Source: a virus. Taken from it: a stretch of 10,733 bases of DNA. This document shows, in pieces, positions 1 to 10,590 of the stretch. The stretch's first letter is position 1. Each line of letters begins with the position of its first letter. Position numbers and translations under genes: made by a program. Location: the UHGV virus genome UHGV-0333516, one strand, 5' to 3'. The notes beneath the pieces are model-generated. The model was not told where the DNA came from and did no database searches. It saw only the letters and a program-made list of their open reading frames with translations.

Positions 1-160
1 ATATTATTGATACAGAGTGTATTAACGGAAAAATCGTTGTTGCCCATATCAATGGTGGGCAAGAAGCGACACTCAAAAAATTTGTTGAGGACTGGCCGAA
101 CAGGTATCTCGTCCCACTAAATCCTAACTATAAAACTATTGAATTCTGTATCAATAATAT
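1..160. repeat. 16-bp perfect inverted repeat (1-16 vs reverse complement of 145-160) flanking a 128-bp segment
   Basis: atattattgatacaga at 1-16 equals the reverse complement of 145-160; both copies encode IIDTE in the same codon phase on opposite strands. Confidence 0.9.
3..146 (+). pseudogene. orphan C-terminal S24-peptidase segment of the CI-like repressor, in opposite orientation to the gene body
   Basis: Plus frame from position 3, with no start codon, translates to IIDTECINGKIVVAHINGGQEATLKKFVEDWPNRYLVPLNPNYKTIEF. This aligns with the LexA/CI region holding the catalytic Lys (VTVKRL...LLPENSEFKPIVV). It continues exactly where the minus-strand repressor ORF breaks off. Confidence 0.6.
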
Positions 161-3193: not shown

Positions 3194-4185
3194 GCCGTTA
3201 CGCCCCCACACCGGAAGTTATGGCTATTGGTCAAATTAATATTTCCGGCAATGTTACACCTGCGACCTGGTGGAAATATATTCGACTACCCAGTGGGCGT
3301 CCGGATGCGACGGCTATCGCTCTGCTTTCAGAGATCGTTTACTGGTACCGCCCGACAGAGGTCAGGGATGAGCACACCGGAGCGTTGCTGGGATATCGCA
3401 AGCGTTTTCAGGGCGACAAACTGCAAAGAAGCTACCAGGCGTTTGCTGAGCAGTTTGGTTTCGGGAAAAGGGAAACCGCAGATGCGCTGAAGCGTCTGCG
3501 CGATGCAGGGTTTATTACTCTGGATTTACGCACGGTGGAAATGCTCGATGGGGTGAAATGCAGCAATATTTTGTTTGTCGGGATCAACCCACAGGCAATT
3601 GCGGCCATCACCACACCTTCTTCTGTTTCGCCAGAAAGTAACAGCAATAATGCAATCAGCGATACAGCTATTACGTTAAAACGGAACACCCCCCGACGTC
3701 ATAACGGAACAGGGGATACGCCGAATGTTGATACAAATACAGAGATTACTACAGAGATTACTACAGAGATTACAACGGAGACTAAAAACACTATTGGCGC
3801 ATCCGCTGACGCGTCTGCACCAGCGCGTTCTGCCAGACAGGAATATTCACCGGAATTTGAACAGGCCTGGCAGGAATATCCCAAACGTGCTGGTGGTAAT
3901 TCAAAATCCGCCGCTTTTAAAGCCTGGAAAGCCCGAATCAGGGAAGGTGTGACACCCGAAACCATGCTCGACGGTGTGAAACGCTATGCCGCCTGGGTGC
4001 GTGTCTCTGGAAATACCGGTACCCAGTTCGTGAAGCAGGCGTCGACGTTCTTTGGTCCGGATCGTCATTTCGAAGAATCCTGGGAAGTTCCTGCGGTATC
4101 TGCAGCCAGACGCGAGGACCCGTACTTCAAAGCCAGTTACGACAACGTGGACTACAGCCAGATCCCGGAAGGATTCAGGGGGTGA
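3190..4185 (+). CDS. phage replication protein with DnaT-like C-terminus
   Basis: 331-aa ORF with strong RBS ggaaggagg; C-terminal ...DYSQIPEGFRG resembles the C-terminus of primosomal protein DnaT (...SQIPPGFRG); central TEITTEITTEITTE linker. Confidence 0.65.
   Translation: MSRYAPTPEVMAIGQINISGNVTPATWWKYIRLPSGRPDATAIALLSEIVYWYRPTEVRDEHTGALLGYRKRFQGDKLQRSYQAFAEQFGFGKRETADALKRLRDAGFITLDLRTVEMLDGVKCSNILFVGINPQAIAAITTPSSVSPESNSNNAISDTAITLKRNTPRRHNGTGDTPNVDTNTEITTEITTEITTETKNTIGASADASAPARSARQEYSPEFEQAWQEYPKRAGGNSKSAAFKAWKARIREGVTPETMLDGVKRYAAWVRVSGNTGTQFVKQASTFFGPDRHFEESWEVPAVSAARREDPYFKASYDNVDYSQIPEGFRG
3739..3786. repeat. tandem 12-bp direct repeats (about 3.5-4 copies) inside the replication gene
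   Basis: acagagattact x2, acagagattaca, then degenerate acggagactaaa. Confidence 0.8.
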
Positions 4186-4187
4186 TC

Positions 4188-4280
4188 ATGAGTCTTTTGA
4201 ATGAAGTTCAGAAATTCATTGAAGCCCATCCGGGGTGTACTTCCGGAGACATTGCGGATGCTTTTTACGTGGGGGCTTAA
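4188..4280 (+). CDS. 30-aa small ORF (winged-helix N-terminal-like fragment)
   Basis: ATG overlaps the upstream stop; stop overlaps the Dam ATG (TAATG); MSLLNEVQKFIEAHPGCTSGDIADAF resembles the N-terminus of PapI/FaeA-type small regulators. Confidence 0.25.
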   Translation: MSLLNEVQKFIEAHPGCTSGDIADAFYVGA

Positions 4281-4933
4281 TGAGTAATAAATATTGCCAG
4301 GCGCTGGTAGAACTGCGGAACAAACCAGCCCATGAACTGAAGGAAGTGGGCGATCAGTGGCGCACGCCGGACAACATTTTCTGGGGAATTAACACCTTGT
4401 TTGGTCCGTTTGTTCTGGATCTGTTCACTGACGGTGATAACGCCAAATGTGCCGCGTATTACACGGCGGAAGACAACGCGCTGGCGCATGACTGGTCAGA
4501 ACGTCTTGCGGAGCTTAAAGGTGCTGCCTTTGGTAATCCCCCATACAGCCGCGCCAGTCAGCATGAGGGGCAATACATCACCGGCATGCGTTACATCATG
4601 AAACATGCCAGTGCCATGCGTGATAAGGGCGGGCGCTATGTTTTCCTGATCAAAGCGGCCACCAGCGAAGTGTGGTGGCCGGAAGATGCAGATCATATTG
4701 CTTTTATTCGCGGGCGTATTGGTTTTGAACTGCCAGCCTGGTTTATCCCGAAAGACGAAAAGCAGGTGCCAACAGGTGCTTTCTTCGCTGGTGCTATTGC
4801 TGTTTTCGACAAGACCTGGAAGGGAGCGGCAATCAGCTACATCGGGCGCGATGAACTTGAGGCATGTGGTGAGGCGTTTCTGGCGCAGGTTCGCCAGCAG
4901 GCGGAAAAACTGGTCAGGGAGATGGCGGCATGA
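4280..4933 (+). CDS. phage Dam-type DNA N6-adenine methyltransferase
   Basis: GNPPY motif (AAFGNPPYS); likely start ATG 4280 with G-rich RBS; the track ORF starts at 4235 in the same frame. Confidence 0.7.
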   Translation: MSNKYCQALVELRNKPAHELKEVGDQWRTPDNIFWGINTLFGPFVLDLFTDGDNAKCAAYYTAEDNALAHDWSERLAELKGAAFGNPPYSRASQHEGQYITGMRYIMKHASAMRDKGGRYVFLIKAATSEVWWPEDADHIAFIRGRIGFELPAWFIPKDEKQVPTGAFFAGAIAVFDKTWKGAAISYIGRDELEACGEAFLAQVRQQAEKLVREMAA

Positions 4934-5256
4934 CGACATTAACTCAATGCCAGCAGCAGGTGCTGGATATGCTGATTTCTTATCAGAAAGAACGTGGCTT
5001 CCCGCCAACCAATCAGGAGGTGGCAACCATGCTGGGATACCGTTCGGTGAATGCAGCGGTGGAGCATCTTCGCGCACTGGAGAAAAAAGGTGTCATCACG
5101 ATAAAGCGTGGCGTGGCCCGGGGTATCACTCTTCATACCGCGGTGAAGGACGACGACAGCGAGGCGGTCGGGATTATCCGCGCCCTGCTTGCCGGTGAGG
5201 CAAACGCCAGGCTGCGTGCAGCCCACTGGTTACATGAGAGGGGCCTGAAAGTATGA
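4930..5256 (+). CDS. LexA N-terminal DNA-binding-domain protein (no peptidase domain)
   Basis: QQQVLDMLISYQKERGFPPTNQEVATMLGYRSVNAAVEHLRALEKKGVITIKRGVARGITL aligns with E. coli LexA residues about 6-70 (winged HTH); there is no S24 domain. Confidence 0.75.
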   Translation: MTTLTQCQQQVLDMLISYQKERGFPPTNQEVATMLGYRSVNAAVEHLRALEKKGVITIKRGVARGITLHTAVKDDDSEAVGIIRALLAGEANARLRAAHWLHERGLKV

Positions 5257-5648
5257 AGCTAATACTGCCTTTTCCGCCCAGCGTGAACACGTACTGGCGA
5301 CACCCCAACAAAGGGGCGTTTGCTGGTAAGAGCCTGATAAGCGCGGCGGGGCGAAAATTCCAGAGCGCGGCGTGTGCAGCAATAGTTGAGCAGTTACGTC
5401 GTCTGCCGAAACCAACGTCGGCACCTGCTTCAGTGGAGATCGTGTTGTTTCCTCCGGATAACCGGATCCGCGATCTGGACAACTATAACAAGGCGCTGTT
5501 TGACGCCCTGACCCACGCGGGTGTGTGGGAAGACGACAGACAGGTGAAAAGAATGCTGGTGGAGTGGGGACCGGTTATCCCGGAGGGGAAGGTCGAGATC
5601 ACTATCAGTAAGTACGAAAAAGCGAGTTGCAAATTAGCAACTCGGTAA
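5253..5648 (+). CDS. rusA: RusA Holliday-junction resolvase
   Basis: 131-aa ORF with RusA-type motifs (LPFPPSVNTYWRH..., RDLDNYNKALFDALTHAGVWEDD); position in the nin-like region. Confidence 0.85.
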   Translation: MKLILPFPPSVNTYWRHPNKGAFAGKSLISAAGRKFQSAACAAIVEQLRRLPKPTSAPASVEIVLFPPDNRIRDLDNYNKALFDALTHAGVWEDDRQVKRMLVEWGPVIPEGKVEITISKYEKASCKLATR

Positions 5649-5693
5649 CGGAATTGAGCAACACCCTAAATTTGGGTATTACCTCGTTAAAGA

Positions 5694-5713
5694 TACTGTA
5701 TTTATGAACAGTG
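5694..5713. promoter_or_regulatory. candidate LexA (SOS) box
   Basis: tactgtatttatgaacagtg: perfect CTGT-N8-ACAG core, 16/20 match to TACTGTATATATATACAGTA; overlaps a candidate -35 (tgaaca) with -10 tattaa at 5728-5733. Confidence 0.5.
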
Positions 5714-5810
5714 TATCCTTGATAACTATTAAAAATCGCAGTAAGTTCATCCTGCATCAACGAAAAGGGAGTGCAGTCCCGCTCGTGGATAAAAATTTGT
5801 GGAGAAACCA

Positions 5811-6626
5811 ATGAATCAGTTGCTTGTAATTGATGGCGTTTCTGTGCGCCAGTACTTCGAATCTAACTACTGTCTTAACGACCTTCAGAAAGCTGCTCTT
5901 CTTGCCGCTGGTGAGAATCGCTCCTCCCGTTCGCTGGAAGTTCACGAGTTTATGCGTCGTCCTGAAACGAAGGCTCTTGTGGAATTATTGGAAGAAGAAA
6001 CTACGGGAGATTCCCGTAGTATTCCTGTCATCACCATTCAGGGGCGCAATGGTGGGACGTATGTCTGTAAAGAGCTGGTCTATGCATATGCAATGTGGAT
6101 CAGCCCGGCATTCAGCTTAAAAGTGATACGTACTTTTGATGCGCTTCATAATTCATCACCAGAAGAAACCACATCCGACAAAATTAAATCCGGGGTCATT
6201 CTGCTTGAATCAGCAGCAAAGACTCTAAATCTGTCAAACTCCTCGAAACTTGGTGCATACCAGAAATTATCAAAGGTAGCTGGTCTTCCTGAACTTATGC
6301 CGATCTATGCCATTGATGCACCTGCTGATGCGCCAGATGGTTCAAGCCGCCCTACGCTGTCGCTGAGTGCACTGCTGAAGCAGTATGGTATCCGCCTGAC
6401 GGCTAATCAGGCATATCACCAGATGGCGAAGCTGGGGATCGTTGAACAACGCGAACGATACAGCCGTACCGCGATTAACAACATCAAAAAATTCTGGTCG
6501 CTGACAGCGAAAGGTTGCATGTTCGGCAAGAACATCACCAGTCCCGCAAATCCGCGCGAGACGCAGCCGCATTTCTTCGAATCCCGATTCCCTGAGCTGT
6601 TAAAGCTGCTCGATACCGTTCATTGA
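5811..6626 (+). CDS. KilA-N domain protein, antirepressor-like
   Basis: N-terminal KilA-N-like region (...PVITIQGRNGGTYVCKELVYAYAMWISPAFSLKVIRTFDAL); ATG 5811 with RBS gtggag; the track start 5799 is a GTG in the same frame. Confidence 0.65.
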   Translation: MNQLLVIDGVSVRQYFESNYCLNDLQKAALLAAGENRSSRSLEVHEFMRRPETKALVELLEEETTGDSRSIPVITIQGRNGGTYVCKELVYAYAMWISPAFSLKVIRTFDALHNSSPEETTSDKIKSGVILLESAAKTLNLSNSSKLGAYQKLSKVAGLPELMPIYAIDAPADAPDGSSRPTLSLSALLKQYGIRLTANQAYHQMAKLGIVEQRERYSRTAINNIKKFWSLTAKGCMFGKNITSPANPRETQPHFFESRFPELLKLLDTVH

Positions 6627-6627
6627 G

Positions 6628-7623
6628 GTGACCGTGAGAGCACTACTGACCCCTGAAATTGCCCCGCGTATGGGGATCGTATTGTTCAGACCCGGTTCAG
6701 AGCTGATGCCCCTGTTTATGCAGGGGCGTGTCCTGCTGGAGCCTGAGCCGGAACGTTATTCATCTTTTGCCAGTGGTGCCGTTCCGGCAGCATCACAACC
6801 GCTGGCGGATGATCCTGCCGTTCGGGTCGTGTTCCGCAATGAGGCAGTGATCCGTCGTGCTGGTGGCGTGGAATGTCTTGAAAGCTGGTTACTTCGTGAA
6901 AAAGGTTGCCAGTGGCCTCATTCCGACTGGCACAGCGAGAACATGACCACAATGCGACACGCGCCGGGCGCAATCCGTCTGTGCTGGCACTGCGATAACC
7001 AGCTGCGCGATCAGTTCACGGAACGGCTGGAATCAATGGCAACGGATAACTGTGCCCGCTGGGTGTTGTCTGTTGTGCGTCGGGATCTCGGTTTTGATGA
7101 CAGTCACGTTGTGACAATGCCGGAACTGTGCTGGTGGCTGGTTCGTAATGATCTGGCGGATGCCTTACCGGAAAGTGCAGCCCGTAAGGCACTGAGATTA
7201 CCGAAGCCTGTTGTGCCGTCTGTCACCCGGGAGAGTGACCTTGTGCCTTCGGTTCCGGCCACCAGCATCATCCAGAATAAAGCGAAAAAGGTGCTGGCGC
7301 TGAAAGTGGATCCGGAGTCGCCGGAGTCTTTTATGTTACGCCCAAAACGTCGCCGCTGGGTTAACGAAAAGTACACGCGCTGGGTTAAGACGCAGCCGTG
7401 TGCATGTTGTGGAAAGCCTGCTGATGATCCCCACCACCTGATAGGCCACGGTCAGGGGGGAATGGGTACAAAAGCGCATGACCTCTTCGTGCTGCCTTTG
7501 TGCAGAAAGCATCACGACGAGCTGCATGCGGATACCGTGGCATTTGAAGAGAAGTATGGCTCCCAGCTGGAGCTGATATTTCGTTTTATCGATCGTGCGC
7601 TGGCAATAGGCGTGCTGGCCTGA
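6628..7623 (+). CDS. DUF968-like prophage protein with C-terminal HNH-like Cys/His motif
   Basis: C-terminal CACCGKPADDPHHLIGHGQGGMGTKAHDLFVLPLCRKHHDELH; sits immediately upstream of Q as in other E. coli prophages. Confidence 0.6.
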   Translation: MTVRALLTPEIAPRMGIVLFRPGSELMPLFMQGRVLLEPEPERYSSFASGAVPAASQPLADDPAVRVVFRNEAVIRRAGGVECLESWLLREKGCQWPHSDWHSENMTTMRHAPGAIRLCWHCDNQLRDQFTERLESMATDNCARWVLSVVRRDLGFDDSHVVTMPELCWWLVRNDLADALPESAARKALRLPKPVVPSVTRESDLVPSVPATSIIQNKAKKVLALKVDPESPESFMLRPKRRRWVNEKYTRWVKTQPCACCGKPADDPHHLIGHGQGGMGTKAHDLFVLPLCRKHHDELHADTVAFEEKYGSQLELIFRFIDRALAIGVLA

Positions 7624-7640
7624 TTTTGTGGAGAAAGTTG

Positions 7641-8012
7641 ATGCGTGATATTCAAATGGTTCTTGAACGTTGGGGGGCATGGGTGGCAAATAATCACGAG
7701 GATGTGGAATGGTCATCTGTTGCTGCAGGTTTTAAGGGATTAATTCCTTCGAAAGTAAAATCCCGCCCGCAATGTAGCGATGACGATGGCCTGATCATTA
7801 GCTCTGCGATGACAGTTCTTAAGAAAAAGGAACCGTATCAATACGAATTACTGGAAATGTATTATGTGTATGGGGTTACATTACGGGTGTTGGGGGTAAA
7901 ACTGGGGATATCACTTAATCAGGTTGTTATCAGACTGCAGAAAGCTGAAGGGTTTATTGACGGTTGTCTGGCAATGTTGGGGGTATCTTTAGAAATTGAT
8001 TGTTACATATAG
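7641..8012 (+). CDS. late-gene antitermination protein Q (small Q family)
   Basis: MRDIQMVLERWGAWVANNHEDVEWSS...SKVKSRPQCSDDD...RLQKAEGFIDGCLAMLGV matches the Q-family pattern of E. coli cryptic prophages; ATG 7641 with RBS gtggag. Confidence 0.8.
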   Translation: MRDIQMVLERWGAWVANNHEDVEWSSVAAGFKGLIPSKVKSRPQCSDDDGLIISSAMTVLKKKEPYQYELLEMYYVYGVTLRVLGVKLGISLNQVVIRLQKAEGFIDGCLAMLGVSLEIDCYI

Positions 8013-9329: not shown

Positions 9330-10379
9330 ATGCTTAATACTGTAAAAATATCCAGTTGTGAGTTAATCAACGCCGACTGCCTGGAATTTATCCGGTCGTT
9401 ACCCGAAAATTCTGTTGACCTGATAGTCACGGACCCGCCGTACTTTAAAGTGAAGCCTGAGGGCTGGGATAACCAGTGGAAGGGCGACGATGATTACCTG
9501 AAGTGGCTGGACCAGTGTCTGGCGCAGTTCTGGCGGGTGCTGAAACCTGCCGGAAGTCTTTACCTGTTCTGTGGTCATCGCCTGGCATCTGATATCGAAA
9601 TCATGATGCGTGAACGCTTCAGTGTGCTGAACCATATTATCTGGGCGAAGCCGTCCGGACGCTGGAACGGATGCAACAAGGAAAGCCTGCGGGCGTATTT
9701 CCCCGCCACAGAGCGCATTCTGTTCGCGGAACATTATCAGGGGCCGTATCGTCCGAAAGATGCCGGGTATGAGGCGAAGAGCAGGGCACTGAAACAGCAT
9801 GTGATGGCCCCGCTGATTGCTTACTTTCGTGATGCGCGCGCTGCCCTGGGGATAACGGCAAAACAGATTGCAGATGCCACAGGAAAGAAAAACATGGTGC
9901 CGCACTGGTTCAGTGCCAGTCAGTGGCAGCTACCGAACGAAAGCGATTATCTGAAATTACAGTCGCTGTTTGCCCGGGTGGCAGAAGAGAAACATCAGCG
10001 GGGAGAACTGGAAAAGTCCCATTACCAACTGGTCAGCACATACAGTGAGCTGAACCGGCAGTATACGGAACTGCTGAGTGAATATAAAAATTTGCGGCGG
10101 TATTTCGGTGTGACGGTGCAGGTGCCGTACACCGATGTGTGGACGTATAAACCGGTGCAGTACTATCCAGGGAAACATCCGTGCGAAAAACCGGCAGAAA
10201 TGCTGCAGCAGATAATCAGCGCAAGTAGTCGTCCTGGTGATCTGGTTGCGGATTTTTTCATGGGGTCGGGTTCAACGGTAAAAGCGGCGATGGCACTGGG
10301 GCGTCGTGCGATTGGTGTTGAGCTGGAGACCGGACGTTTTGAGCAGACAGTCAGGGAAGTTCAGGATTTAATCGTTTGA
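9330..10379 (+). CDS. DNA methyltransferase (beta-class N6A/N4C type; motif IV DPPY precedes motif I)
   Basis: LIVTDPPY near the N-terminus and DFFMGSGST near the C-terminus; 349 aa. Confidence 0.85.
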   Translation: MLNTVKISSCELINADCLEFIRSLPENSVDLIVTDPPYFKVKPEGWDNQWKGDDDYLKWLDQCLAQFWRVLKPAGSLYLFCGHRLASDIEIMMRERFSVLNHIIWAKPSGRWNGCNKESLRAYFPATERILFAEHYQGPYRPKDAGYEAKSRALKQHVMAPLIAYFRDARAALGITAKQIADATGKKNMVPHWFSASQWQLPNESDYLKLQSLFARVAEEKHQRGELEKSHYQLVSTYSELNRQYTELLSEYKNLRRYFGVTVQVPYTDVWTYKPVQYYPGKHPCEKPAEMLQQIISASSRPGDLVADFFMGSGSTVKAAMALGRRAIGVELETGRFEQTVREVQDLIV

Positions 10380-10428: not shown

Positions 10429-10504
10429 GGCCCTTTAGCTCAGTGGTGAGAGCGAGCGACTCATAATCGCCAGGTCGCTGGTTCAAATCCAGCAAGGGCC
10501 ACCA
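10429..10504 (+). tRNA. tRNA-Ile(CAU) (ileX/ileZ-like; tRNA-Met not excluded)
   Basis: 76-nt cloverleaf: acceptor ggccctt/aagggcc, D-stem gctc/gagc, anticodon loop ctcataa (CAT), T-loop ttcaaat, 3' ACCA; close to E. coli ileX. Confidence 0.8.
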
Positions 10505-10513
10505 TATCACATA

Positions 10514-10590
10514 CCGCCATTAGCTCATCGGGATAGAGCGTCAGCCTTCGAAGCTGGTTGCGCGGGGTTCGAGTCCTCGATGGCGGTCCA
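10514..10590 (+). tRNA. tRNA-Arg(UCG)
   Basis: 77-nt cloverleaf: acceptor ccgccat/atggcgg, D-stem gctc/gagc, anticodon loop cttcgaa (TCG), T-arm cgggg-ttcgagt-cctcg, 3' TCCA. Confidence 0.75.

What the first reader, a model, noticed from the sequence alone, without database searches (positions are those of the whole stretch)
4930..5256. Phage-encoded LexA DNA-binding domain without the peptidase domain
The 108-aa protein aligns with the LexA N-terminal winged HTH, including the recognition-helix region (SVNAAVEHLRALEKKG vs SPNAAEEHLKALARKG), but has no S24 domain, so it cannot be inactivated by RecA-stimulated autocleavage. It lies 440 bp upstream of a near-consensus SOS box (5694-5713). Such a protein could act as an uncleavable LexA mimic keeping phage SOS-box promoters off, or could compete with host LexA. 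Either way it would rewire how induction couples to the SOS response.
Basis: partly seen in the sequence, partly recalled or inferred. Interest (0 to 1): 0.6.

Follow-up and report, generated by a model that had tools for sequence, protein, structure and literature searches.

The report
Prophage LexA DNA-binding-domain-only protein
A common E. coli prophage gene encodes the DNA-binding head of the SOS repressor LexA joined to a short helical tail of its own instead of the self-cleaving domain; the family is already catalogued but untested, and its pairing with the nearby SOS box is not conserved.

Summary
ORF 4930-5256 encodes a 108-aa protein that matches the whole Pfam LexA_DNA_bind model (E 2.9e-19). 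It is 43% identical to E. coli LexA residues 1-91 and has no S24 peptidase domain. The SOS box at 5694-5713 is also real.

The gene is not new as an object. It belongs to PHROG 362 and is annotated "LexA family transcriptional regulator". It occurs in 2233 of 5426 complete E. coli genomes and in phages SfV, SfII, cdtI, mEp460 and several Stx2 phages. It is intact in 81/81 loci, with pN/pS 0.04.

The family is confined to Enterobacteriaceae. Its conserved two-helix tail matches nothing else. The gene always sits, by ATGA overlap, directly upstream of one RusA clade.

The proposed pairing with the SOS box fails. That box belongs to a separate KilA-N module found in only 187 genomes. Other SOS boxes occur equally often in prophages lacking the gene, and the two sister subfamilies have near-background box density.

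Most likely this is a RecA-insensitive delayed-early regulator that recognises LexA-like sites in trans. That reading is inferred, not shown. GIL01 gp6 is a precedent for a truncated LexA homologue with a diverged site. I found no functional study of this family.

The parts
4930..5256 (+). Gene for the 108-aa LexA-DNA-binding-domain-only protein, called LexN in this report (PHROG 362)
   Evidence: ORF. Pfam LexA_DNA_bind E 2.9e-19. phrog_362 full-length match E 4.2e-59. 81/81 related loci carry an intact 108-codon ORF with pN/pS 0.04.
4930..5133 (+). Residues 1-68: LexA-type winged helix-turn-helix (helices 6-22, 28-35, 40-52; wing strands 56-58 and 66-68)
   Evidence: AlphaFold model. Foldseek 3jso_A rmsd 1.0 A over 66 columns at 52% identity. 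S39, N41, A42, A43, R64 and G65 are invariant across three subfamilies.
5134..5160 (+). Residues 69-77: acidic linker predicted to be disordered
   Evidence: pLDDT below 50 for residues 71-76. This stretch varies in length and sequence across the family.
5161..5238 (+). Residues 78-103: family-specific two-helix tail (78-87 and 93-103), a candidate dimerisation element
   Evidence: AlphaFold helices with pLDDT about 82. L86, L87, A93, A97 and L101 are invariant; I82, I83 and W100 are nearly so. pN/pS is 0.10. The tail hits only phrog_362 and nothing in Pfam or PDB.
4235..4933 (+). Upstream phage Dam methyltransferase; its stop overlaps the LexN start (gcATGAcg)
   Evidence: Pfam Dam E 6.8e-45; sequence. 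The upstream neighbour varies between subfamilies.
5253..5648 (+). RusA Holliday-junction resolvase; its start overlaps the LexN stop (gtATGAag). This is the conserved downstream partner.
   Evidence: Pfam RusA E 1.3e-14. RusA lies immediately downstream in 81/81, 78/80 and 55/56 loci of the three subfamilies. These RusAs are 63-100% identical to the window's, against about 40% in loci lacking LexN.
5694..5713 (.). Near-consensus SOS (LexA) box in the 162-bp RusA/KilA-N spacer. It belongs to the KilA-N mosaic module and is at most one possible trans target of LexN.
   Evidence: Perfect CTGT-N8-ACAG, matrix score 21.4. The module breakpoint is at the end of RusA. Present in 187 of 5426 genomes. 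No consensus sigma-70 promoter was found next to it by the simple scan.
5811..6626 (+). KilA-N domain gene downstream of the box (ATG 5811 preceded by GGAG; the ORF list starts it at GTG 5799)
   Evidence: Pfam KilA-N E 1.3e-15. phrog_129. The PhiR49_1 annotation gives an 816-bp CDS.
6628..7623 (+). DUF968 / HNH-like gene, third member of the conserved LexN-RusA-DUF968 block
   Evidence: Pfam DUF968 E 1.5e-81. Present in 73/81, 76/80 and 51/56 loci.
9338..9357 (.). Second strong SOS box, overlapping codons 3-9 of the N6_N4 DNA methyltransferase gene (9330-10379). It occurs independently of LexN.
   Evidence: Matrix score 24.2. The same or a near-identical box sits at +8 of the gene in 80/80 methyltransferase loci, and 1 of those 80 has LexN.

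Best explanation
Shown: the gene encodes an intact, strongly constrained protein. It consists of a LexA-type winged helix-turn-helix (residues 1-68), a short disordered linker, and a family-specific pair of amphipathic helices (78-103). It has no S24 peptidase domain. It lies in the rightward nin region of a lambdoid prophage, between the replication genes and Q, and is joined by ATGA overlaps to Dam upstream and RusA downstream. No promoter or terminator was predicted around it.

Inferred: it is made only once the prophage repressor has been inactivated and rightward early transcription reads through. This is the point at which RecA* has already destroyed host LexA. Lacking the LexA C-terminal domain, it can neither be cleaved nor dimerise as LexA does. 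I propose that the helical tail supplies dimerisation and that the dimer binds CTGT-type dyads (SOS-box-like operators) in trans. Targets would be the host SOS regulon and any LexA-controlled mobile-element genes in the cell, including the two boxes in this window. That would re-impose repression that RecA cannot lift. It is not a dedicated regulator of the box at 5694-5713.
For: Domain identity and absence of S24 are shown. Four of the five LexA DNA-contact residues (Ser39, Asn41, Ala42, Glu44, Glu45; PMC3091678) are kept in every E. coli-type allele, along with A43, H46, R64 and G65. pN/pS is 0.01 over the wHTH and 0.10 over the tail, and 81/81 ORFs are intact. The tail is conserved, predicted helical with an invariant hydrophobic face, and unique to the family. 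LexA needs dimerisation for firm operator binding, and its C-terminal domain carries the dimerisation, cleavage and RecA* contacts (PMC3159453). A domain-only protein therefore needs a substitute dimeriser and would be RecA-proof. Gene position and translational coupling are seen, with no promoter or terminator predicted around the gene. From my own knowledge, not checked here: the LexA 1-84 fragment keeps some repressor activity and cells remove it through ClpXP (Neher et al. 2003); the isolated N-terminal domain binds operators cooperatively (Kim and Little 1992); this protein ends in -LKV, not an ssrA-like -VAA.
Against: No binding data exist. E44 is replaced in every family member (V, A or T), and P40 is V. 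R28 is not kept. In the sister subfamilies E45 is A in 21/67 alleles or D in 42/42, and H46 is M in 42/42, although their hosts have the same LexA. This suggests specificity is drifting rather than locked to the SOS box. GIL01 gp6 has the same level of identity to its host LexA (44%) yet binds a different site and activates transcription (PMC6182141). Duplicated LexA genes often change motif (PMC8565304). Phage-borne SOS boxes do not track the gene. Dimerisation through the tail is only inferred, because no multimer prediction was possible. Delayed-early timing is inferred from gene order; the SfV record annotates a promoter upstream of dam.
Confidence: 0.4

Rival explanations
1. A gp6-like, phage-specific regulator. 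The LexA fold was captured long ago and now recognises a phage or host site other than the SOS box, acting as activator or repressor of a lytic-phase promoter.
For: GIL01 gp6 is a truncated LexA homologue, 44% identical to host LexA, that binds a distinct site and activates the late promoter (PMC6182141). E44 is lost family-wide, P40 is V, and E45 and H46 vary in the sister subfamilies. LexA duplicates tend to change motif (PMC8565304). SOS boxes are absent from most loci of two subfamilies.
Against: S39, N41, A42, A43 and R64 are invariant, and E45 and H46 are kept in all E. coli-type alleles with pN/pS 0.01. No alternative shared dyad was found within 6-8 kb of the gene, either by scanning CTGT-Nx-ACAG spacings or by listing intergenic inverted repeats. 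The surrounding genes overlap and leave no operator space.
Confidence: 0.3
2. An accessory of the RusA/DUF968 recombination-nuclease module, for example a DNA-targeting or regulatory subunit, rather than a transcription factor.
For: RusA lies immediately downstream, with overlapping stop and start, in 81/81, 78/80 and 55/56 loci of subfamilies that are only 44-50% identical. DUF968 follows in most loci. The upstream neighbour varies. LexN is tied to one RusA clade (63-100% identity against about 40% elsewhere).
Against: Tight linkage within a mosaic module does not require a joint function. RusA clades lacking LexN are common. The conserved residues are those that contact DNA bases in LexA. 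I know of no precedent for such a complex.
Confidence: 0.12
3. One reading: a dedicated regulator of the adjacent SOS-box promoter (5694-5713) of the KilA-N gene, forming one functional unit with it.
For: The box lies 438 bp downstream. 61 of 67 viral contigs carrying this exact box, with enough upstream sequence to judge, also carry the gene.
Against: The reverse association is weak: the box module is in 187 genomes against 2233 for the gene, and in 13/81 sampled loci. The 91% co-occurrence is explained by physical linkage through the intervening RusA. The box module has a sharp mosaic boundary at the end of RusA. The sister subfamilies lack such a box.
Confidence: 0.08
4. A non-functional remnant of a captured lexA gene.
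For: The local alignment to LexA runs on to the cleavage-site region (LLAGE against VAAGE), which fits descent from a truncated lexA.
Against: 81/81 ORFs are intact with pN/pS 0.04. The tail is conserved across genera. The gene is present in 41% of complete E. coli genomes.
Confidence: 0.02

Closest known systems
GIL01 gp6 (Bacillus thuringiensis tectivirus), a truncated LexA homologue (Fornelos et al. 2018, PMC6182141)
   Same: Both are phage-encoded, consist of the LexA winged-helix DNA-binding domain without the catalytic/dimerisation domain, and are about 43-44% identical to the host LexA N-terminal domain. Both are expressed in the lytic programme.
   Different: gp6 is essentially the bare domain. 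This protein adds a 40-residue linker and two-helix tail. gp6 belongs to a Gram-positive tectivirus that uses host LexA as its repressor, whereas this is a lambdoid prophage with its own cI. gp6 is shown to bind a non-LexA site and to activate the late promoter; nothing is shown here. Sequence relatedness to gp6 itself was not tested.
Host LexA repressor (E. coli; PDB 1lea, 3jso)
   Same: Same fold (rmsd 1.0 A over 66 residues). S39, N41, A42, E45, H46 and R64 are kept. The alignment runs into the LexA linker.
   Different: There is no S24 domain, no Ser/Lys dyad and no conserved Ala-Gly site, and it scores below the TIGR00498 cut-off. E44 is V, P40 is V and R28 is N. Dimerisation must be achieved differently, if it occurs at all.
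LexA(1-84) cleavage fragment
   Same: It is the same part of the protein. From my own knowledge, the fragment retains weak operator binding and repression until ClpXP removes it.
   Different: The phage protein is a stable gene product with its own C-terminal helices and no ssrA-like C-terminus.
PHROG 362 / NCBI 'LexA family transcriptional regulator' / Stx-phage pham 237 (SfV orf42, mEp390 gp43)
   Same: It is a member of this family: full-length match at E 4e-59, and 95-100% identical proteins in SfV, SfII, cdtI, mEp460 and Stx2 phages.
   Different: Nothing differs. These are annotation labels only, and I found no experimental work on the family.

Membership tests
Canonical LexA repressor (TIGR00498 equivalog) | N-terminal LexA winged-helix DNA-binding domain (PF01726) | tested here: met
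   Pfam E 2.9e-19 over model positions 1-65/65. Foldseek top hits are 1lea and 3jso.
Canonical LexA repressor (TIGR00498 equivalog) | C-terminal S24 peptidase/dimerisation domain with Ser-Lys dyad | tested here: not met
   No PF00717 hit. The protein ends at residue 108 and the next ORF is RusA. TIGR00498 scores 70.7 bits against a cut-off of 110.95 and covers positions 1-91 of 203.
Canonical LexA repressor (TIGR00498 equivalog) | Ala-Gly autocleavage site in the linker | tested here: not met
   The window protein aligns LLAGE with LexA VAAGE, but the Gly is N, K or other residues in family members. There is also no protease domain to use the site.
Canonical LexA repressor (TIGR00498 equivalog) | Binds CTGT-N8-ACAG SOS boxes | not testable with these tools
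   Only indirect evidence: 4 of 5 contact residues are kept in the E. coli-type subfamily, and E44 is lost family-wide (contact list from PMC3091678).
PHROG 362 (phage 'transcriptional repressor', LexA-domain-only proteins of enterobacterial phages) | Full-length match to the 106-position profile, including the C-terminal tail | tested here: met
   E 4.2e-59, residues 1-108 on profile positions 1-106. The tail alone hits only this PHROG, at E 2.2e-13.
PHROG 362 (phage 'transcriptional repressor', LexA-domain-only proteins of enterobacterial phages) | Position directly upstream of RusA in the nin region of lambdoid prophages | tested here: met
   ATGA overlap in the window. RusA lies downstream in 81/81, 78/80 and 55/56 loci. 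mEp390 and SfV annotations agree.
gp6-type truncated LexA homologues (GIL01) | Phage-encoded LexA DNA-binding domain lacking the catalytic domain | tested here: met
   definition taken from PMC6182141.
gp6-type truncated LexA homologues (GIL01) | Direct sequence relatedness to gp6 | not tested
gp6-type truncated LexA homologues (GIL01) | Binds a non-LexA site and activates a late promoter | not testable with these tools
   No shared alternative dyad was found near the gene. Function is unknown.
Host-LexA-regulated prophage gene (for the box at 5694-5713) | High-scoring SOS box placed at a promoter upstream of a gene | tested here: inconclusive
   The box scores 21.4 bits, within the range of real boxes, and lies 98 bp upstream of the KilA-N ATG. 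The simple sigma-70 scan found no promoter next to it.

The most novel reading that the evidence does not exclude
About 40% of E. coli genomes carry a RecA-proof, ClpXP-proof surrogate of LexA. It would be switched on only when its prophage commits to lysis. It would then shut the SOS regulon down again, including LexA-controlled antirepressors, colicins, toxins and methylases of rival mobile elements. SOS would become a pulse that the phage terminates, and co-resident elements would be denied induction.
Probability: 0.3. Interest if true: 0.75.

Novelty: new member of a known kind. Interest (0 to 1): 0.45.

Why it matters
If the protein binds SOS boxes, a very common prophage gene would be a built-in off-switch for the SOS response. 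That response drives mutagenesis, persistence, Shiga-toxin phage induction and cross-induction of other prophages. The gene sits in Stx2 and serotype-converting phages, so it could affect toxin output and competition between phages. If it instead has a diverged site, it would be a second, independent case after GIL01 gp6 of phages re-using the LexA head as a lytic-phase regulator. Either outcome can be reached with simple EMSA and reporter experiments. What can be said now is more modest: the family is already catalogued, its function is unknown, and the adjacent SOS box is not its conserved partner.

Tried and rejected
1. Co-occurrence of the gene with phage SOS boxes. A LexA weight matrix, built from E. 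coli boxes recalled from memory, was run over 217 loci. Strong boxes occur in 50/81 E. coli-type loci but only 12/80 and 10/56 loci of the sister subfamilies. Density is equally high in prophage loci lacking the gene. A dedicated cis pairing is rejected.

2. Altered half-site spacing. I counted CTGT-Nx-ACAG and ACAG-Nx-CTGT for x = 0-20. The counts were dominated by redundant coding sequence, and no consistent alternative spacing emerged.

3. Shared intergenic dyads with 5-nt arms. Only terminator stems and immunity-region repeats appeared, and none was present in most loci.

4. The third CTGT-N8-ACAG at 1619-1634. It scores only 6.0 on the matrix and lies inside the Rha-like ORF, so I treat it as chance.

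5. Homology of the tail. Pfam, PHROGs, PDB Foldseek and PADLOC gave nothing beyond phrog_362.

6. The LLAGE/VAAGE match as a retained cleavage site. Rejected because the Gly is not conserved.

7. Literature. Ten full-text searches found no functional study of this family. They found only GIL01 gp6 and a catalogue entry for Stx phages.

8. Searches that failed. The LexA-DNA structure paper and the ClpXP/LexA paper are not held.

Full report
**Setting.** The window is the early-right arm of a lambdoid E. coli prophage.
- A cI-like repressor lies on the minus strand at 117-614.
- Rightward genes follow: cro (710-907), a cII/YmfL-like gene (935-1519), a Rha-family gene, replication genes, and phage Dam (4235-4933).
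- Then comes the 108-aa ORF (4930-5256), followed by RusA (5253-5648) and a 162-bp spacer.
- After the spacer lie a KilA-N gene (5811-6626), DUF968/HNH (6628-7623) and Q (7626-8012).
- Further downstream are a few small genes, an N6_N4 DNA methyltransferase (9330-10379) and two tRNAs.

The region from 4265 to 6700 is 98.6% identical to phage PhiR49_1. It is about 93% identical, with one replaced segment, to SfV, SfII, mEp460 and several Stx2 phages.

**Check of the observation.**
- The ORF matches the whole Pfam LexA_DNA_bind model (E 2.9e-19) and nothing from the S24 peptidase family.
- The only solved relatives are LexA structures.
- The AlphaFold model has mean pLDDT 78 and superposes on DNA-bound LexA at 1.0 A over 66 residues.
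- The lexA equivalog model scores below its cut-off and covers only the first 91 of 203 positions.
- The next gene, overlapping by ATGA, is RusA, so this is not a frameshifted full-length lexA.
- The SOS box at 5694-5713 is a perfect CTGT-N8-ACAG. It scores as high as genuine E. coli boxes and above all 200 shuffles of the window.

Both parts of the observation are confirmed.

**Anatomy of the protein.**
- Residues 1-68 form the winged helix.
- Residues 69-77 are acidic and predicted to be disordered.
- Residues 78-87 and 93-103 form two helices.
- The tail has invariant hydrophobic positions: L86, L87, A93, A97 and L101, with I82, I83 and W100 nearly invariant.
- The tail matches nothing in Pfam, PDB or other PHROGs.

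LexA's DNA-contacting residues are given as Ser39, Asn41, Ala42, Glu44 and Glu45 (PMC3091678). The window protein keeps S39, N41, A42 and E45, together with A43, H46 and R64. E44 is V and P40 is V.

**How common and how old it is.**
- The gene is in 2233 of 5426 complete E. coli genomes, with up to four copies per genome. It is annotated 'LexA family transcriptional regulator'.
- It is found in 61 phage records, under labels ranging from 'LexA-like protein' to the wrong 'SOS-response repressor and protease LexA'.
- It is PHROG 362.
- It corresponds to a pfam01726-only 'pham 237' listed in a survey of Stx phages (PMC8136144).
- A profile search of 1.8 billion representative proteins found full-length relatives with the same tail at 40-50% identity. 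Those that carry a source name come only from Enterobacteriaceae: Cronobacter, Kosakonia, Enterobacter, Cedecea, Klebsiella, Salmonella, Citrobacter and Hafnia.
- In 81 E. coli-type viral contigs all ORFs are intact. pN/pS is 0.04 overall, 0.01 for the wHTH and 0.10 for the tail.

The gene is functional and under strong constraint.

**Conserved context.**
- Across three subfamilies only 44-50% identical to each other, RusA follows immediately in 81/81, 78/80 and 55/56 loci. DUF968 usually follows RusA.
- The upstream neighbour varies: Dam, a PerC-like gene or a replication gene.
- The linked RusAs form one clade, 63-100% identical to the window's. RusAs in loci lacking the gene are about 40% identical.

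The stable unit is therefore LexN-RusA-DUF968, not LexN plus an SOS box.

**The SOS-box question.**
- The window diverges from most relatives exactly at the end of RusA. The spacer with the box and the first part of KilA-N form a separate mosaic module.
- In phiSTEC1575-Stx2k the gap between RusA and KilA-N is 20 bp, with no box.
- The box module is in 187 genomes, against 2233 for the gene.
- Among viral contigs with this exact box and enough upstream sequence, 61 of 67 carry the gene. This is what tight physical linkage through RusA would produce.
- The window has a second, stronger box at 9338-9357, overlapping the start of the methyltransferase gene. That box is present in 80/80 loci with this methyltransferase, and only one of those loci has the gene.
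- Strong-box density per 10 kb is 0.75 in E. coli-type loci, 0.11 and 0.13 in the two sister subfamilies, and 0.94 in the methyltransferase loci that lack the gene. Shuffled controls gave 0.02-0.04.

Phage SOS boxes are features of particular E. coli prophage modules, presumably read by host LexA. They do not travel with this gene.

**Mechanism.** Three things are shown.
- The protein has a LexA-type DNA-binding head.
- It cannot be cleaved, and it cannot dimerise through a LexA C-terminal domain.
- It is encoded in the nin region, with translational coupling on both sides and no predicted promoter or terminator nearby.

LexA needs dimerisation for firm binding, and its C-terminal domain holds the dimer, cleavage and RecA* interfaces (PMC3159453). 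From this I infer three further points.
- The conserved tail replaces the dimeriser.
- The protein appears only after the phage has been de-repressed.
- It binds LexA-like CTGT dyads in trans, restoring repression of SOS-box promoters of the host and of mobile elements while RecA* is still active.

From my own knowledge, not checked here:
- The LexA 1-84 fragment still represses weakly and has to be removed by ClpXP.
- The isolated domain binds operators cooperatively.

Both make such a role plausible. I put 0.4 on this reading.

**Main rival.** GIL01 gp6 is a truncated LexA homologue with the same level of identity to its host LexA. It binds a different sequence and activates the late promoter (PMC6182141).
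- In favour of divergence here: E44 is lost in the whole family; E45 is A in a third of one sister subfamily and D in the other; H46 is M in the latter. Their hosts' LexA is unchanged.
- Against divergence: the E. coli-type subfamily holds all the other contact residues under extreme constraint, and I could find no alternative shared dyad near the gene.

I give this rival 0.3. A role tied to RusA/DUF968 gets 0.12 on synteny alone. A dead remnant gets 0.02.

**Novelty and verdict.** The object is already catalogued, and the idea of a phage LexA head without the protease has an experimental precedent. What may be unreported:
- The family-specific helical tail.
- The strict coupling to one RusA clade.
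- The demonstration that the neighbouring SOS box is an unrelated module.

Ten full-text searches found no functional work on this family. I rate it a new member of a known kind, with moderate interest because the LexA-surrogate hypothesis is easy to test and would matter for SOS and Stx-phage biology.

Noticed in passing
window 9338-9357 (and 9330-10379): A second, stronger SOS box (TACTGTAAAAATATCCAGTT, 24.2 bits) overlaps codons 3-9 of an N6_N4 DNA methyltransferase gene. The same or a near-identical box is at +8 in 80/80 viral contigs with this gene. This suggests the prophage methylase is held off by host LexA.
   Followed up: partly
window 1-160: The first 144 bases are inverted relative to reference genomes, with 16-nt complementary arms at 1-16 and 145-160. 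As a result the cI-like repressor reads as 165 aa with half an S24 domain, whereas it is an intact 217-aa protein in NZ_CP028112. This is either a contig-end artefact or a real small inversion.
   Followed up: yes
L001 (phiSTEC1575-Stx2k) 1546-1565, and about 22 other loci 2.9-5.3 kb upstream of the LexA-like gene: A perfect palindromic SOS box, TACTGTTTTTA[C/T]ATACAGTA, lies inside the coding sequence of the cI-like repressor gene of related prophages. It is not present in this window. Its purpose is unexplained.
   Followed up: no
window 4930-7623; loci L001-L217: LexN, RusA and DUF968 form a conserved block, with 4-bp gene overlaps (seen in mEp390), across subfamilies that have diverged to 44-50% (LexN), 69-75% (RusA) and about 65% (DUF968). 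RusA genes not preceded by LexN belong to a different clade at about 40% identity.
   Followed up: partly
proteins P0127, P0130, P0138, P0140, P0146 (profile search): Some proteins from other, unidentified organisms carry two LexA_DNA_bind domains in tandem and no S24 domain. This is a single-chain way of pairing two LexA heads.
   Followed up: no
window 10429-10504 and 10514-10590: tRNA-Met(cat) and tRNA-Arg(tcg) genes lie downstream of the methyltransferase. phiSTEC1575-Stx2k has the same arrangement just upstream of stx2, so the window may come from an Stx-type or closely related prophage.
   Followed up: no
window 3738-3781 and 637-678: A 12-bp unit repeated 3.7 times lies inside the replication gene (peptide TEITTEITTEITTE) and may be origin iterons. 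A 22-bp unit repeated 1.9 times lies in the cI-cro spacer and may be operators.
   Followed up: no
window 5623-5644: A perfect 8-bp-stem hairpin lies at the very end of RusA and is unique to the SOS-box variant of the spacer. It is followed by a T-run only on the minus strand, so it looks like a terminator for leftward transcripts.
   Followed up: no
window 5167-5199 (residues 80-90): The local alignment with LexA extends to the cleavage-site region (LLAGE against VAAGE). This looks like a vestige of descent from a full-length lexA. The Gly is not conserved in the family.
   Followed up: yes
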